Position numbers and translations under genes: made by a program
Virus record (IMG/VR): IMGVR_UViG_3300020045_001587
Coordinates: 19,725 to 83,724 of that record
Reading direction: 5' to 3' (one strand)
Length of the DNA: 64,000 nucleotides
Source of the DNA: a virus
Taxonomy: Duplodnaviria; Caudoviricetes
Shown: piece by piece, positions 13,961 through 57,935 of the stretch
Layout: each line of letters starts with the position of its first letter
Numbering within the stretch: the stretch's first letter is position 1
Notes under the pieces: model-generated
Told to the model about the DNA's origin: nothing
The model's input: the letters and a program-made list of their open reading frames with translations, nothing else
Databases searched by the model: none

Positions 13961-13989
13961 TTGACAAGAACCACAACTCGTGGTATAAT
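13961..13989 (+). promoter_or_regulatory. sigma70 promoter, 17-bp spacer, extended -10
   Basis: TTGACA-N17-TATAAT with TG at the extended -10 position. Confidence 0.85.
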
Positions 13990-17691: not shown

Positions 17692-18225
17692 TTGTCTATG
17701 AGCGCACATAAAATCAAACTTTTGTCAGGTGGCTGTTTTGACTTCGTAGACATGGAACAGAGCAGCTATACGATAGAAGACATTGCACATAACCTGAGCC
17801 GTATTTGTCGTTTCAATGGCTCTATTGAGAAACATTACAGTGTTGCCCAGCATAGCGTTATCGTTAGCTACGTTGTACCTGAGAAGTATGCGTTGAGTGG
17901 TCTGTTACACGACATGTCGGAGAGCTTTGTAGGCGACTTGTCTAGCCCTTTGAAGCAGCTTATGAAAGAATACAAGAAGCTGGAAATCAAAGTAGAGAAA
18001 TATATGTTTGGCAAGATGGGTATTCCGTTTCCTATGCATAGCTCTATCAAGCTGGCAGACTTGCAAGTGCTGGCTGCGGAGATTCGTGACCTACAGCCAC
18101 ATGCGAGTGATTGGGCTGGGTTAGCAGAGATTGAGCCTTATGCTAAGAAGATTGTTCCTTGGAATGCTGAGAAGGCTAAGAAGGAATTCTTGAAGCGTTA
18201 TAATGAACTAACTAAGGAGAAATAA
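17692..18225 (+). CDS. HD-domain phosphohydrolase (YfdR-like 5'-deoxynucleotidase)
   Basis: IEDIAHNLSRICRFNG..YSVAQHS..LLHDMSESFVGD. Confidence 0.9.
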   Translation: MSMSAHKIKLLSGGCFDFVDMEQSSYTIEDIAHNLSRICRFNGSIEKHYSVAQHSVIVSYVVPEKYALSGLLHDMSESFVGDLSSPLKQLMKEYKKLEIKVEKYMFGKMGIPFPMHSSIKLADLQVLAAEIRDLQPHASDWAGLAEIEPYAKKIVPWNAEKAKKEFLKRYNELTKEK

Positions 18226-18704
18226 TGAATCTTCCAGAAGAATTTAAATTTAAGCACGACCCAGAAAGTGATTGGGTACACACTGCCCTATTGAAACCAG
18301 ATGGCTCTTACCATATTGTGTGGGATGAAAAGTACACTTACCCAAGTTGGAGTAACTGTAACGCTGAAGAAATTTTCTCATTTATGTCGGAAGCAGATGG
18401 TTGGGTAATTCTGTCGCAAAAAGATGTACAAATTGCTGACAAGCCTGTTGTATCTGACGGAGGATCGTCTAGCTACTATGCACTGACAATTACTAACAAA
18501 GCTGGTGACACACTGGTCTGTGAGCTAGGGGATATAATCCGGGTAGTGGTTGGAAATGACGCGGATTTATTCAACATCATTAAAGCATGCCGTAGAGCTT
18601 ACGAATCGTCACAAGGACGAGGTAAAGAAGGTGTGTCAATCGAGTATGACATGAATAAGGTTAAGTATTTCGCTGATGAATTTAAGCACTGGAATAAACA
18701 ATGA
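18225..18704 (+). CDS. DUF3310/SaV-like protein with an extra N-terminal repeat domain
   Basis: SDGGSSSYY..FNIIKACRR..GK..YDMNKVKYF. Confidence 0.55.
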   Translation: MNLPEEFKFKHDPESDWVHTALLKPDGSYHIVWDEKYTYPSWSNCNAEEIFSFMSEADGWVILSQKDVQIADKPVVSDGGSSSYYALTITNKAGDTLVCELGDIIRVVVGNDADLFNIIKACRRAYESSQGRGKEGVSIEYDMNKVKYFADEFKHWNKQ

Positions 18705-19109: not shown

Positions 19110-19138
19110 TTGACAAGCTGTTTAAATGAGCGTATAAT
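19110..19138 (+). promoter_or_regulatory. sigma70 promoter, 17-bp spacer
   Basis: Perfect TTGACA-N17-TATAAT. Confidence 0.85.
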
Positions 19139-19149
19139 GTTGTTTCAAT

Positions 19150-19237
19150 GGCTCCCGTCCCTCCAACGTTCTTCTACAGCGTTGTCATTAAATAGGAGGA
19201 TGGATGACAAGGGGTTCGATACCTCCGGGAGCCTCCA
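19150..19237 (+). ncRNA. tRNA-like RNA lacking a D-arm (UCU anticodon-like loop, 3' UCCA)
   Basis: Acceptor GGCTCCCG/CGGGAGCC plus TCCA; T-arm GGGG-TTCGATA-CCTC; hairpin CAACGTT-CTTCTAC-AGCGTTG. Confidence 0.65.
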
Positions 19238-19272: not shown

Positions 19273-19563
19273 ATGGAAAAACTACTAAAGTTTCTTGGAG
19301 CATCTGCTGTAGTAGCTATATCGTTCTTTCTTAGTGGGTATGCTGTGCAGCAACTGTGGCAATGGTTTGTGGTTCCAATCTTTGCACTACCTCTGCTAGG
19401 ATTCTTGCAAGCTGTTGGTCTGACAATGACAGCTAGATATATGTGTTCTCGTCACACTATCTGCATCGAGCCAGATGACGTTGCACAGAAACGTATGACC
19501 TACTCTATCTTGTTCCCTCTGACGGCTCTGGCAGTTGGTTGGGTGATTAAGAGTTTTATGTAA
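19273..19563 (+). CDS. membrane protein
   Basis: SD AAGGAG; about 3 hydrophobic segments. Confidence 0.7.
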   Translation: MEKLLKFLGASAVVAISFFLSGYAVQQLWQWFVVPIFALPLLGFLQAVGLTMTARYMCSRHTICIEPDDVAQKRMTYSILFPLTALAVGWVIKSFM

Positions 19564-19636
19564 TAAAGAATTGCAAACAGAAGTTTGCTCTATGCCTTGC
19601 ACGGCTTTGTGCAATTTAAATTAAAGGAAACAAACA

Positions 19637-45295: not shown

Positions 45296-45323
45296 ATTAT
45301 AACAGATTTTTGTCAGTTGTCAA
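45296..45323 (-). promoter_or_regulatory. putative late promoter, 16-bp spacer class
   Basis: TTGACA-ACTGACAAAAATCTGT-TATAAT. Confidence 0.75.
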
Positions 45324-53903: not shown

Positions 53904-53931
53904 ATTATAACAGAAATTTGTGTATTGTCAA
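53904..53931 (-). promoter_or_regulatory. putative late promoter, 16-bp spacer class
   Basis: TTGACA-ATACACAAATTTCTGT-TATAAT. Confidence 0.75.
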
Positions 53932-56017: not shown

Positions 56018-56112
56018 TGTAACCATCCTCATGGTTGTTATAAATCTTCTTAGAATAACAGCCTCAACAAGCGGAGGATGGCAGACGCCAAGGCTGCTAA
56101 TATAAGAAGACT

Positions 56113-56864: not shown

Positions 56865-56939
56865 TGGAGGCGAGTTCCAGAATTGCACTGGAGATAAGAG
56901 GTTACAAAGCTCACGTTATGCTGACTTAACTAACCCGCC
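56865..56939 (-). tRNA. atypical tRNA, anticodon UGU (Thr) with a Cys-like acceptor
   Basis: GGCGGGT/ACTCGCC plus UCCA; D-arm GTTA/TAAC; loop TTTGTAA; T-loop TGCAATT; two mismatches in the anticodon stem. Confidence 0.7.
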
Positions 56940-57673: not shown

Positions 57674-57758
57674 TGGTCCCTCCTACAGGACTCCAACCTG
57701 TAAGACTCTCGTCGCAAAGGCTTAAACTTTGTGTGTTTAGCGATTTCACCAAGGAGGG
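57674..57758 (-). tRNA. tRNA-Leu(UAA)
   Basis: CCCTCCT/AGGAGGG plus ACCA; CAAAG-TTTAAGC-CTTTG; variable arm; T-loop TTGGAGT. Confidence 0.85.
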
Positions 57759-57907: not shown

Positions 57908-57935
57908 ATTATACAACAATTCTGCCAATTGTCAA
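57908..57935 (-). promoter_or_regulatory. promoter of the tRNA/Dps operon, 16-bp spacer
   Basis: TTGACA-ATTGGCAGAATTGTTG-TATAAT. Confidence 0.75.

What the first reader, a model, noticed from the sequence alone, without database searches (positions are those of the whole stretch)
19110..19237. Stand-alone, promoter-driven D-armless tRNA-like RNA
A perfect sigma70 promoter precedes an 88-nt element far from the tRNA cluster. It has an 8-bp acceptor (GGCTCCCG/CGGGAGCC), U73-CCA, and a 4-bp T-stem with a canonical TTCGATA loop. This 8/4 geometry is reminiscent of allo-tRNA/SelC*-type tRNAs. There is a 7-bp hairpin with a canonical 7-nt loop CU-UCU-AC (Arg AGA), but no D-arm; a second hairpin GTCAT/ATGAC with a 15-nt loop follows instead. 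The G1-C72/G2-C71/C3-G70/U73 end resembles tRNA-Cys. UCU would complete the T4-like set (Leu UAA, Ser UGA, Gly UCC, Thr UGU) seen at 56-58 kb. It could be a tRNA mimic or decoy for synthetases or anticodon nucleases, or a new tRNA class (inference).
Basis: partly seen in the sequence, partly recalled or inferred. Interest (0 to 1): 0.75.

Follow-up and report, generated by a model that had tools for sequence, protein, structure and literature searches.

The report
Rewired, non-cloverleaf phage arginine tRNA
This 88-base phage gene is very probably an arginine tRNA (anticodon UCU) whose D-arm hairpin is replaced by a helix that closes around the anticodon arm plus a small pseudoknot. Tested gene finders and the checked GenBank records miss this layout, and I found no paper describing it for tRNAs used on bacterial ribosomes.

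Summary
A perfect TTGACA-17-TATAAT promoter (19110-19138) precedes an 88-nt RNA gene (19150-19237). The gene has an 8-bp acceptor stem, a 4-bp T-stem with loop UUCGAUA, a 7-nt anticodon loop CUUCUAC, an encoded U-CCA end and no D hairpin. ARAGORN and Rfam do not call it.

It is not a one-off. A covariance model built from this sequence alone finds 17 further distinct homologues, each with E of 3e-7 or lower. They come from uncultured phages and from cultured Vibrio, Acinetobacter, Aeromonas, Salicola, Nitrincola and E. coli phages. About 340 GenBank phage records match by blastn.

On the 13-sequence alignment, 22 of 28 proposed pairs show compensatory changes.

The gene sits in tRNA arrays at tRNA spacing. 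It fills the slot that holds a canonical tRNA-Arg(UCU) in a relative. Every carrier checked lacks a canonical tRNA-Arg(UCU). One phage has tandem CCU and UCU copies.

Best reading: a working tRNA-Arg for AGA/AGG, with odds of about 0.6. A non-decoding tRNA mimic remains possible.

This scan has noted the same family before on other genomes. I found no paper describing it.

The parts
19110..19138 (+). Sigma-70 promoter: TTGACA (19110-19115), 17-nt spacer, TATAAT (19133-19138). The expected transcription start is about 4-5 nt before the RNA's 5' end.
   Evidence: It is a 12/12 match and one of 5 perfect sites against 0.07 expected. A homologous promoter precedes the tRNA slot in relatives L002, L003 and L006.
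19150..19237 (+). The 88-nt RNA gene: rewired tRNA-Arg(UCU), including the encoded CCA.
   Evidence: It scores 95 bits with family model R2, whereas canonical tRNAs score below 28 bits. ARAGORN and Rfam give no call.
19150..19157 (+). Acceptor stem 5' strand (nt 1-8). It pairs with 19226-19233.
   Evidence: All 8 pairs show compensatory changes and 99% of cells are paired.
19160..19164 (+). P2 5' strand (nt 11-15, CCUCC). It is continuous with the anticodon stem and pairs with 19195-19199.
   Evidence: 4 of 5 pairs show compensatory changes and 98.5% of cells are paired.
19165..19183 (+). Anticodon arm: 6-bp stem (19165-19170 with 19178-19183), loop CUUCUAC (19171-19177), anticodon UCU (19173-19175).
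   Evidence: 5 of 6 pairs covary. Loop positions C32, U33, C35, U36 and A37 are invariant in all 18 sequences. Position 34 is U in 17 and C in 1.
19184..19188 (+). P3 5' strand (nt 35-39, GUCAU). It pairs with 19204-19208, and this helix crosses P2, which makes a pseudoknot.
   Evidence: P3 was not part of the search model, yet 84.9% of cells are paired and 3 of 5 pairs show double changes. A 3-6 bp helix is present at this place in nearly all of the 13 sequences; L113 is doubtful.
19195..19199 (+). P2 3' strand (nt 46-50, GGAGG).
19200..19204 (+). AUGGA: a D-loop-like segment. GG (19202-19203) and the following A (19204) are invariant.
   Evidence: G55, G56 and A58 of alignment A7 are present in 18 of 18 sequences, including members found by BLAST without any pattern constraint. 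Reading them as G18, G19 and A20/21 is inference.
19204..19208 (+). P3 3' strand (nt 55-59, AUGAC).
19211..19225 (+). T-arm: 4-bp stem GGGG/CCUC with loop UUCGAUA.
   Evidence: UUCGA is invariant in 18 of 18 sequences. 96% of stem cells are paired.
19226..19237 (+). Acceptor 3' strand (19226-19233), discriminator U (19234), encoded CCA (19235-19237).
   Evidence: CCA is encoded in 16 of 18 members. It is missing only where the neighbouring canonical tRNAs also lack it.
19273..19563 (+). Downstream co-transcribed ORF of 96 aa, a small membrane protein. A terminator-like hairpin lies at 19597-19614.
   Evidence: It matches phrog_2169 with E = 2e-14. No terminator lies between the RNA gene and the ORF.

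Best explanation
The element is a gene for a non-cloverleaf tRNA-Arg(UCU).

Shown:
- It belongs to a conserved, covarying RNA family found in many unrelated phages.
- The family has an 8-bp acceptor stem stacked on a 4-bp T-stem (12 bp, as in normal tRNAs), a canonical T-loop, and a canonical anticodon stem-loop with UCU.
- Instead of a D hairpin it has helix P2 (nt 11-15 with 46-50), which closes around the anticodon arm. A 3-6 bp helix P3 (35-39 with 55-59) makes the core a pseudoknot.

Inferred:
- The P2 3' strand followed by A-N-G-G-A has the polarity and sequence of a D-stem 5' strand plus a short D-loop (A14, G18, G19, A20/21). The GG could then still dock on the T-loop and an L shape could be kept.
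- The RNA is made from the strong sigma-70 promoter together with the downstream membrane-protein gene. RNase P cuts it at G1 and it is trimmed to the encoded CCA.
- The host ArgRS charges it through C35, U36 and the A after GG.
- It reads AGA (and AGG), which make up 29% of this phage's arginine codons.
For: 1. The family is real.
- A model made from the window sequence alone hits 17 other distinct sequences at E = 3e-14 to 3e-7.
- Family model R2 gives members 67-98 bits and canonical tRNAs less than 28 bits.

2. The structure covaries.
- 95.5% of cells are paired, against 48% or less when partners are slid.
- 22 of 28 pairs show double changes, and 0 of 500 shuffles reach this.
- P3 was not in the model and is still supported.

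3. It sits in a tRNA context.
- In L022/L023 it lies 7 nt before tRNA-Leu. In L024 it lies inside a 12-tRNA array. In Nitrincola phage and Acinetobacter phage ME3 it lies directly before tRNA-Met. In KARL-1 it lies 13 nt after tRNA-Thr.

4. It replaces the canonical gene.
- Relative L003 has a canonical tRNA-Arg(UCU) plus tRNA-Met behind the homologous promoter. L006 has the rewired form there.
- No carrier checked has a canonical tRNA-Arg(UCU). That includes Vibrio phages Gary (21 tRNAs), VCPH (20) and D51 (16).

5. The anticodon is constrained.
- C32, U33, C35, U36 and A37 are invariant in 18 of 18 sequences.
- The only change at position 34 gives CCU, another Arg anticodon, in a tandem CCU+UCU pair in Aeromonas phage AhSzw-1.

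6. It carries processing marks.
- The encoded CCA follows the habit of neighbouring tRNAs.
- U at position -1 occurs in 15 of 18, P = 1.5e-4. This fits the known RNase P preference, which I cite from established knowledge.

7. AGA and AGG mean arginine in this phage.
- They align to R in homologues at 19/28 and 24/32 sites, like CGN codons.
- AGA plus AGG are 29% of Arg codons.

8. Published background makes it plausible.
- A20, C35 and U36 are the bacterial Arg identity set (PMC9976931).
- The E. coli translation apparatus accepts an artificial tRNA with the D-arm removed (PMC11551756).
- 8/4 tRNAs exist in phages (PMC5389517).
Against: - There is no expression, end-mapping, aminoacylation or decoding data.
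- The conserved A after GG is usually the closing pair of P3 (U-A in 10 of 13 sequences). It may therefore not be free to act as the A20 identity base.
- No 3D model was possible, so the L shape is inference.
- Two members have C53-G61 instead of the usual G53-C61, and one has a 6-nt T-loop.
- Part of the sequence invariance around the anticodon stem in the metagenome hits was imposed by my search patterns. The BLAST-found members remove this bias for the loop and for GGA only.
- Every observation is also compatible with a tRNA mimic that needs a genuine-looking anticodon loop and CCA end.
Confidence: 0.6

Rival explanations
1. It is a tRNA mimic that is processed like a tRNA but not used for decoding. 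For example, it could be a decoy or inhibitor for a host or phage enzyme that recognises the tRNA-Arg(UCU) anticodon loop, such as an anticodon nuclease or a modification enzyme. Its rebuilt body would keep it out of the normal pathway.
For: - The body departs radically from the cloverleaf while the anticodon loop is frozen.
- tRNA-targeting defences and phage counter-tRNAs are known in general terms. I cite this from my own knowledge and did not test it here.
- The family is found almost only in phages. The one pattern scan of 185,579 prokaryote species genomes gave no true hit.
Against: - It fills the otherwise empty UCU slot in near-complete phage tRNA sets and replaces a canonical tRNA-Arg(UCU) at the same locus.
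- It keeps the 12-bp acceptor/T branch, GG, the T-loop and CCA, all of which a decoy of the anticodon loop would not need.
- A tandem CCU+UCU pair looks like a decoding set.
Confidence: 0.25
2. It is a working tRNA that is charged with an amino acid other than arginine. For example, SerRS might charge it through the variable-arm-like P3, as with 8/4 allo-tRNAs. Or CysRS might charge it through G2-C71, C3-G70 and U73.
For: - It has 8/4 geometry and a helix at the variable-arm position, as in allo-tRNAs (PMC5389517).
- The window copy has G1-C72, G2-C71, C3-G70 and U73.
Against: - AGA and AGG codons sit at conserved Arg positions, so missense insertion would be harmful.
- The acceptor pairs and the discriminator are not conserved.
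- The anticodon is not GCA.
- The P3 loop is tied up in P2, so no free long arm protrudes.
Confidence: 0.05
3. It is a cis-acting leader of the downstream mRNA. In this reading the tRNA-like fold only supplies an RNase P processing site or stabiliser for the membrane-protein transcript.
For: In this window it lies between a promoter and an ORF with no terminator in between.
Against: - In most other phages it lies between tRNAs, not before an mRNA.
- A processing signal would not need an invariant Arg anticodon loop.
Confidence: 0.05
4. It is a decaying tRNA pseudogene or a chance fold.
For: - The MFE z-score is only -1.6.
- tRNA finders fail on it.
Against: - 18 distinct sequences in unrelated phage groups keep all five helices through compensatory changes.
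- Member lengths of 83-88 nt differ by non-multiples of three, and no ORF is conserved across them.
Confidence: 0.02

Closest known systems
Canonical bacterial and phage tRNA-Arg(UCU) (class I cloverleaf, Rfam RF00005), for example the gene at L003:3553-3627 behind the homologous promoter in a related phage
   Same: It has the same anticodon and the same loop features (U33, C35, U36, A37). It has a TΨC-type T-loop, a 12-bp acceptor/T branch, a CCA end, the same genomic slot, and tRNA-array context.
   Different: There is no D hairpin between the acceptor and anticodon arms. The D-stem-like helix is formed by nt 11-15 with 46-50 around the anticodon arm. The GG-A segment lies 3' of the anticodon arm. 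There is an extra pseudoknot helix. The geometry is 8/4 instead of 7/5. RF00005 and ARAGORN do not detect it.
(8/4) tRNAs and allo-tRNAs of bacteria and phages (Mukai et al. 2017, PMC5389517)
   Same: It has an 8-bp acceptor plus 4-bp T-stem, a helix at the variable-arm position, and it occurs in phage tRNA clusters.
   Different: Those tRNAs keep a normal D-arm and a free long variable arm, and they are Ser, His, Cys or Sec types. That paper reports no Arg(UCU) and no pseudoknotted core.
D-armless mitochondrial tRNA-Ser(AGY) and the artificial D-arm-less mini HisT (PMC9427863, PMC11551756)
   Same: There is no D hairpin. The anticodon helix is extended towards the acceptor stem. mini HisT shows that bacterial translation can accept such a body.
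   Different: Those RNAs lack the D-loop/T-loop contact and fold into a Y shape. This family keeps an invariant GG and a canonical T-loop, and it adds two covarying helices. It is larger than a normal tRNA (83-88 nt), not smaller.
tRNA-like structures with pseudoknots (plant-virus TLS, the tmRNA tRNA-like domain)
   Same: It is a tRNA-like fold that includes a pseudoknot and a CCA end.
   Different: There the pseudoknot is in the acceptor branch, or the anticodon arm is absent. Here the acceptor branch is ordinary and a complete anticodon arm is present. Rfam gives no match even at E = 10 or lower.

Membership tests
Canonical tRNA (Rfam RF00005, cloverleaf) | Acceptor stem with discriminator and CCA | tested here: met
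   The stem is 8 bp rather than 7. All pairs covary, and U-CCA is encoded.
Canonical tRNA (Rfam RF00005, cloverleaf) | T-arm with a 7-nt UUCRANN loop | tested here: met
   The loop is UUCGAUA on a 4-bp stem, and UUCGA is invariant in 18 of 18.
Canonical tRNA (Rfam RF00005, cloverleaf) | Anticodon arm with a 7-nt loop, U33 and a purine at position 37 | tested here: met
   The loop is CUUCUAC. U33 and A37 are invariant.
Canonical tRNA (Rfam RF00005, cloverleaf) | D-arm hairpin between the acceptor and anticodon arms | tested here: not met
   Only 7 nt lie between the two arms, and 5 of them pair with nt 46-50.
Canonical tRNA (Rfam RF00005, cloverleaf) | Score at or above the family threshold, or a call by a tRNA finder | tested here: not met
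   RF00005 gives no hit at the gathering score or at E = 10 or lower. ARAGORN fails in five modes.
Working tRNA-Arg (function) | Bacterial ArgRS identity set: C35, U/G36, A20 (PMC9976931) | tested here: inconclusive
   C35 and U36 are invariant. An invariant A follows GG, but it is usually paired in P3, so its equivalence to A20 is inference.
Working tRNA-Arg (function) | Aminoacylation with Arg and decoding of AGA/AGG on ribosomes | not testable with these tools
   Only indirect support is available: slot replacement, absence of a canonical UCU gene in carriers, a CCU+UCU tandem pair, and AGA meaning Arg.
(8/4) allo-tRNA group (PMC5389517) | 8-bp acceptor plus 4-bp T-stem | tested here: met
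   A divergent Felix O1 relative appears to be 7/5.
(8/4) allo-tRNA group (PMC5389517) | Normal D-arm and a free long variable arm | tested here: not met
   There is no D hairpin, and the loop of the variable-arm-like helix is paired with nt 11-15.
D-armless mitochondrial-type tRNA | D-arm replaced by a short unpaired connector, with loss of the D-loop/T-loop contact | tested here: not met
   The connector is paired (P2), and an invariant GG plus a canonical T-loop are kept. ARAGORN in mitochondrial mode does not call the window copy.
Rewired phage tRNA-Arg family (unpublished; defined here by model R2) | R2 score far above canonical tRNAs, plus the acceptor, P2, anticodon, P3 and T helices and a UCU or CCU anticodon | tested here: met
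   The window copy scores 95.1 bits. Members score 67-98 bits and canonical tRNAs score below 28 bits.

The most novel reading that the evidence does not exclude
This is a natural class of tRNA used on bacterial ribosomes that is not a cloverleaf. The D-stem is assembled across the anticodon arm, the D-loop is moved behind it, and a pseudoknot locks the core. The design spread among many phage lineages because the altered body lets the phage's AGA/AGG decoder escape something that acts on ordinary tRNA-Arg(UCU), such as a host tRNA-targeting defence or a phage-induced tRNA attack.
Probability: 0.2. Interest if true: 0.95.

Novelty: new variant of a known kind. Interest (0 to 1): 0.8.

Why it matters

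A conserved, covarying, non-cloverleaf tRNA-Arg would overturn that statement. It is present in hundreds of phages, including cultivable E. coli, Vibrio, Acinetobacter and Salmonella phages. It would also give a natural test of how much of the tRNA core RNase P, ArgRS, EF-Tu, the modification enzymes and the ribosome really need.

There are practical consequences too. Phage tRNA inventories are undercounted, because the gene is unannotated or covered by 'hypothetical protein' in GenBank. The scaffold could also interest people who build orthogonal tRNAs.

The question is directly testable, because carriers with laboratory hosts exist.

Tried and rejected
- Rfam at the gathering score and at E = 10 or lower gave nothing relevant. 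The weak miRNA and RT-6 hits are noise.
- ARAGORN in bacterial, mitochondrial, intron and low-score modes gave no call on the window copy.
- A blastn search of the 1-kb region against GenBank phages found no match. Members turned up only with short queries taken from other family members.
- An exact T-arm/acceptor pattern in IMG/VR gave 0 hits.
- A pattern with a relaxed T-loop and one with a free anticodon produced no new members after covariance-model filtering. So I found no other anticodons on this anticodon-stem scaffold by that route. CCU turned up only through BLAST.
- A pattern scan of prokaryote species genomes gave 4 hits, none real.
- MAFFT alignments A1 and A2 misplaced gaps in the stems. 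I dropped them in favour of model-based alignments.
- A blastn search of the canonical L003 tRNA-Arg against E. coli genomes found no match. The intended comparison with the host argU loop was therefore left out.
- Pfam found nothing in the flanking ORFs except an HD/YfbR-type 5'-deoxynucleotidase. No neighbouring gene is shared among carriers, so no dedicated protein partner is suggested.
- The tRNA-Cys identity idea was rejected (see rival explanations).

Full report
**What is in the window.**
- TTGACA (19110-19115), a 17-nt spacer and TATAAT (19133-19138) lie 11 nt before an 88-nt element (19150-19237).
- The element has an 8-bp acceptor stem (GGCUCCCG/CGGGAGCC), U73 and an encoded CCA.
- It has a 4-bp T-stem (GGGG/CCUC) with loop UUCGAUA.
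- It has a hairpin with the 7-nt loop CUUCUAC.
- There is no hairpin where a D-arm should be.

The promoter is the only 12/12 match in the 10 kb scanned. It is one of five perfect sites in the window, where 0.07 are expected. Another perfect site lies upstream of the canonical tRNA cluster (57908-57935, minus strand).

No terminator separates the element from the next ORF (19273-19563, a small membrane protein, phrog_2169), so the two should be co-transcribed.

ARAGORN finds three tRNAs far away (Ser-UGA, Gly-UCC, Leu-UAA). Rfam adds a fourth at 56868-56939. Neither tool calls the element, nor does Rfam at E = 10 or lower, nor ARAGORN in five modes. The folding energy alone is not unusual (z = -1.6).

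The window is bases 19725-83724 of an 83.7-kb IMG/VR phage genome with terminal repeats. The genome has 42% G+C. Its nearest cultured relatives are distant Pseudomonas phages (45% identity in the exonuclease).

**Relatives at the same locus.**
I fetched relatives through the neighbouring 359-aa protein. They show that this spot is a promoter-plus-tRNA slot whose contents change.
- L003 carries a canonical tRNA-Arg(UCU) followed by tRNA-Met(CAU).
- L002 carries tRNA-Met only.
- L006 carries a homologue of the odd element, followed by a long tRNA-Met-like RNA.
- Four other relatives have nothing there.

The window and L006 copies differ at most stem positions yet keep every pairing.

**The family.**
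I built covariance model R1 from the window sequence alone, with its proposed nested structure. It finds the following.
- IMG/VR members L022/L023 and L024 (E = 3e-14 to 5e-8).
- 13 metagenome contigs.
- After short-query blastn, members in cultured phages:
  - Vibrio phages VCPH, D51/D254/D260 and Gary/GRLPWR (T5-like Demerecviridae)
  - Salicola jumbo phage SCTP-2
  - Nitrincola phage 1M3-16
  - Acinetobacter T4-like phage KARL-1 and about 30 relatives
  - Acinetobacter phage ME3
  - Aeromonas phage AhSzw-1
  - E. coli O157:H7 phage Av-05

About 340 GenBank phage records match by blastn. In the rows listed, the place is unannotated or lies under a 'hypothetical protein'.

Model R2, built from 18 distinct sequences, separates members (67-98 bits) from all canonical tRNAs in the same loci (below 28 bits). 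It finds one copy per genome, except for two in AhSzw-1. A divergent relative that looks 7/5 scores 39 bits in Salmonella phage Felix O1, at a place ARAGORN leaves empty.

One pattern scan of one genome per prokaryote species gave no true hit.

**Structure.**
On the 13-sequence alignment the figures are as follows.
- 95.5% of pair cells are standard pairs, against 41-48% when partners are slid by 1-3 columns.
- 22 of 28 pairs carry changes on both sides.
- No shuffle out of 500 reaches any of the five measures.

| Helix | Cells paired | Pairs with double changes |
|---|---|---|
| Acceptor | 99% | 8 of 8 |
| P2 (11-15 with 46-50) | 98.5% | 4 of 5 |
| Anticodon stem | 95% | 5 of 6 |
| T-stem | 96% | 2 of 4 |
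| P3 (35-39 with 55-59) | 85% | 3 of 5 |

The alignment was fitted to the nested helices, which favours them. P3 was not in the model, so its support is independent. A separate scan finds a 3-6 bp P3 helix at this place in nearly every member; L113 is doubtful.

P2 and P3 cross, so the core is a pseudoknot.

The invariant unpaired bases across 18 sequences are:
- C32, U33, C35, U36 and A37 of the anticodon loop
- GG and the following A at nt 53-55
- UUCGA of the T-loop

U9 and an A-rich stretch (nt 41-45) are nearly invariant.

Some invariance next to the anticodon in the pattern-found members was imposed by my search patterns. The BLAST-found members vary in the anticodon stem but keep the loop, GGA and the T-loop.

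**How I read the topology (inference).**
- P2 is continuous with the anticodon stem. This gives an 11-bp arm, comparable to the D-stem plus anticodon stem of a normal tRNA.
- The P2 3' strand runs away from the anticodon. It is followed by A-(A/U)-G-G-A, which has the polarity and sequence of a D-stem 5' strand followed by a short D-loop (A14, G18, G19, A20/21).
- The parts of a D-arm are therefore present. The strand that normally precedes the anticodon arm now follows it, inside the loop of a variable-arm-like helix (P3).
- The acceptor/T branch is 8+4 = 12 bp, as in normal tRNAs.
- A GG/T-loop elbow and an L shape look achievable. I could not model them.

**Evidence that it behaves as a tRNA gene.**
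- Members lie in tRNA arrays at tRNA spacing: 7 nt before tRNA-Leu in L022, inside a 12-tRNA array in L024, 2-16 nt before tRNA-Met in Nitrincola phage and ME3, and 13 nt after tRNA-Thr in KARL-1.
- CCA is encoded in 16 of 18 members. The two without it (L024, L053) sit beside canonical tRNAs that also lack it.
- The base before G1 is U in 15 of 18, where flanks are 39% T (P = 1.5e-4). This is the preferred context for bacterial RNase P, which I cite from established knowledge.

**Evidence for arginine decoding.**
- The gene occupies the slot that holds a canonical tRNA-Arg(UCU) in L003.
- No carrier examined has a canonical UCU gene:
  - the window's whole genome
  - the complete 43-kb phage of L022, whose only other tRNA is Leu-UAA
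  - Vibrio phages Gary, VCPH and D51, with 21, 20 and 16 canonical tRNAs. Gary and VCPH include Arg-ACG.
- The single change at position 34 gives CCU, the other AGR-box arginine anticodon. It occurs in a tandem CCU+UCU pair in AhSzw-1.
- C35 and U36, which are bacterial ArgRS determinants (PMC9976931), never vary.
- In this phage AGA and AGG sit at conserved arginine positions as often as CGN codons do (19/28 and 24/32 align to R). This argues against a recoding tRNA.
- AGA plus AGG make up 29% of arginine codons.
- E. coli ArgRS-independent work shows that the bacterial apparatus can use an artificial tRNA with the D-arm removed (PMC11551756).

**What remains open.**
- The conserved A after GG usually closes P3, so it may not be available as A20.
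- Two members have C53-G61, and one has a 6-nt T-loop.
- All the comparative facts would also fit a processed tRNA mimic that needs an authentic anticodon loop.

My odds:

| Reading | Odds |
|---|---|
| Working tRNA-Arg | about 0.6 |
| Non-decoding mimic | about 0.25 |
| Other amino-acid identity | 0.05 |
| mRNA leader only | 0.05 |
| Pseudogene or chance | about 0.02 |

**Comparison with known kinds.**
- Function and most parts match a canonical tRNA-Arg(UCU). It fails that family's defining D hairpin and its models.
- It shares 8/4 geometry with the phage and bacterial 8/4 tRNAs of Mukai et al. (PMC5389517). That paper describes Ser, His, Cys and Sec types with normal D-arms and mentions no Arg(UCU) or pseudoknot.
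- It is unlike the mitochondrial D-armless tRNAs, which lose the D/T contact and shrink.

Eight full-text searches found no description of such a phage tRNA. Reviews of non-canonical tRNAs do not mention phages or pseudoknots.

**Earlier notes of this scan.**
describe the same family on other genomes many times, as 'rewired, pseudoknotted phage tRNA-Arg'. The notes include the AhSzw-type tandem pair, an Av-05-like locus and Felix O1. I reached the reading independently before consulting them and re-tested those three points here. They are not independent evidence.

**Verdict.**
The interpretation 'new tRNA class' is the best supported. The window copy is one member of a widespread family that the GenBank records I inspected leave unannotated, and that I could not find in the literature.

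Noticed in passing
L006:3500-3614: Directly after the rewired Arg gene, a related phage has a 115-nt tRNA-like RNA. It has an acceptor stem, a D-arm, a T-arm and CCA. A roughly 60-nt extended arm (two stacked helices, with CAU in the apical region) stands in place of the anticodon arm. Rfam tRNA scores it 28.6 bits, just under the threshold.
   Followed up: partly
L120:1152-1239 and 1246-1330 (Aeromonas phage AhSzw-1): Two tandem rewired genes lie 6 nt apart, one with anticodon CCU and one with UCU. ARAGORN finds no tRNA in this locus.
   Followed up: partly
L033:1430-1864 and L033:1440-1527; L117:2987-3069 (Vibrio phage D51): The GenBank 'tmRNA' annotation spans several tRNA genes and looks like a spurious ARAGORN permuted-tmRNA call. 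Other tRNA-like elements lie between canonical tRNAs; they have a T-arm and CCA, but ARAGORN gives no tRNA call there. They are not members of the Arg family.
   Followed up: no
window 56018-56082 (-): A 65-nt hairpin with a 9-bp basal stem lies next to tRNA-Ser and runs into the next ORF's start codon. It is a weak hit to model R1 (E = 5.9) and has no T-arm. It is probably an unrelated structure.
   Followed up: no
window 13961-13989 (+), 19110-19138 (+), 45296-45323 (-), 53904-53931 (-), 57908-57935 (-): Five perfect TTGACA-N16-18-TATAAT promoters occur where 0.07 are expected. The last one precedes the canonical tRNA cluster.
   Followed up: partly
window 56868-56939 (-) and 57674-57758 (-): The phage's canonical tRNAs are themselves atypical. 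The Thr(UGU) gene is found by Rfam but not by ARAGORN and has a non-standard T-loop. The Leu(UAA) gene is found by ARAGORN but not by Rfam at the gathering score.
   Followed up: no
L022:1475-1850: An HNH-type endonuclease ORF ends just upstream of the rewired tRNA gene in the 43-kb phage group.
   Followed up: no
window 18225-18704 (+): A 159-aa ORF lies 450 nt upstream. It has a weak PHROG match to 3'-phosphatase/5'-polynucleotide kinase (E = 5.5e-4) and no Pfam hit. This would be relevant only if tRNA repair were involved.
   Followed up: no
L123:1501-1582 (Salmonella phage Felix O1, NC_005282 25951-26032): A divergent relative with what looks like 7/5 geometry, anticodon loop CUUCUAA and a GG-A segment behind the anticodon arm. 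It scores 39 bits with R2. ARAGORN leaves the place empty.
   Followed up: partly
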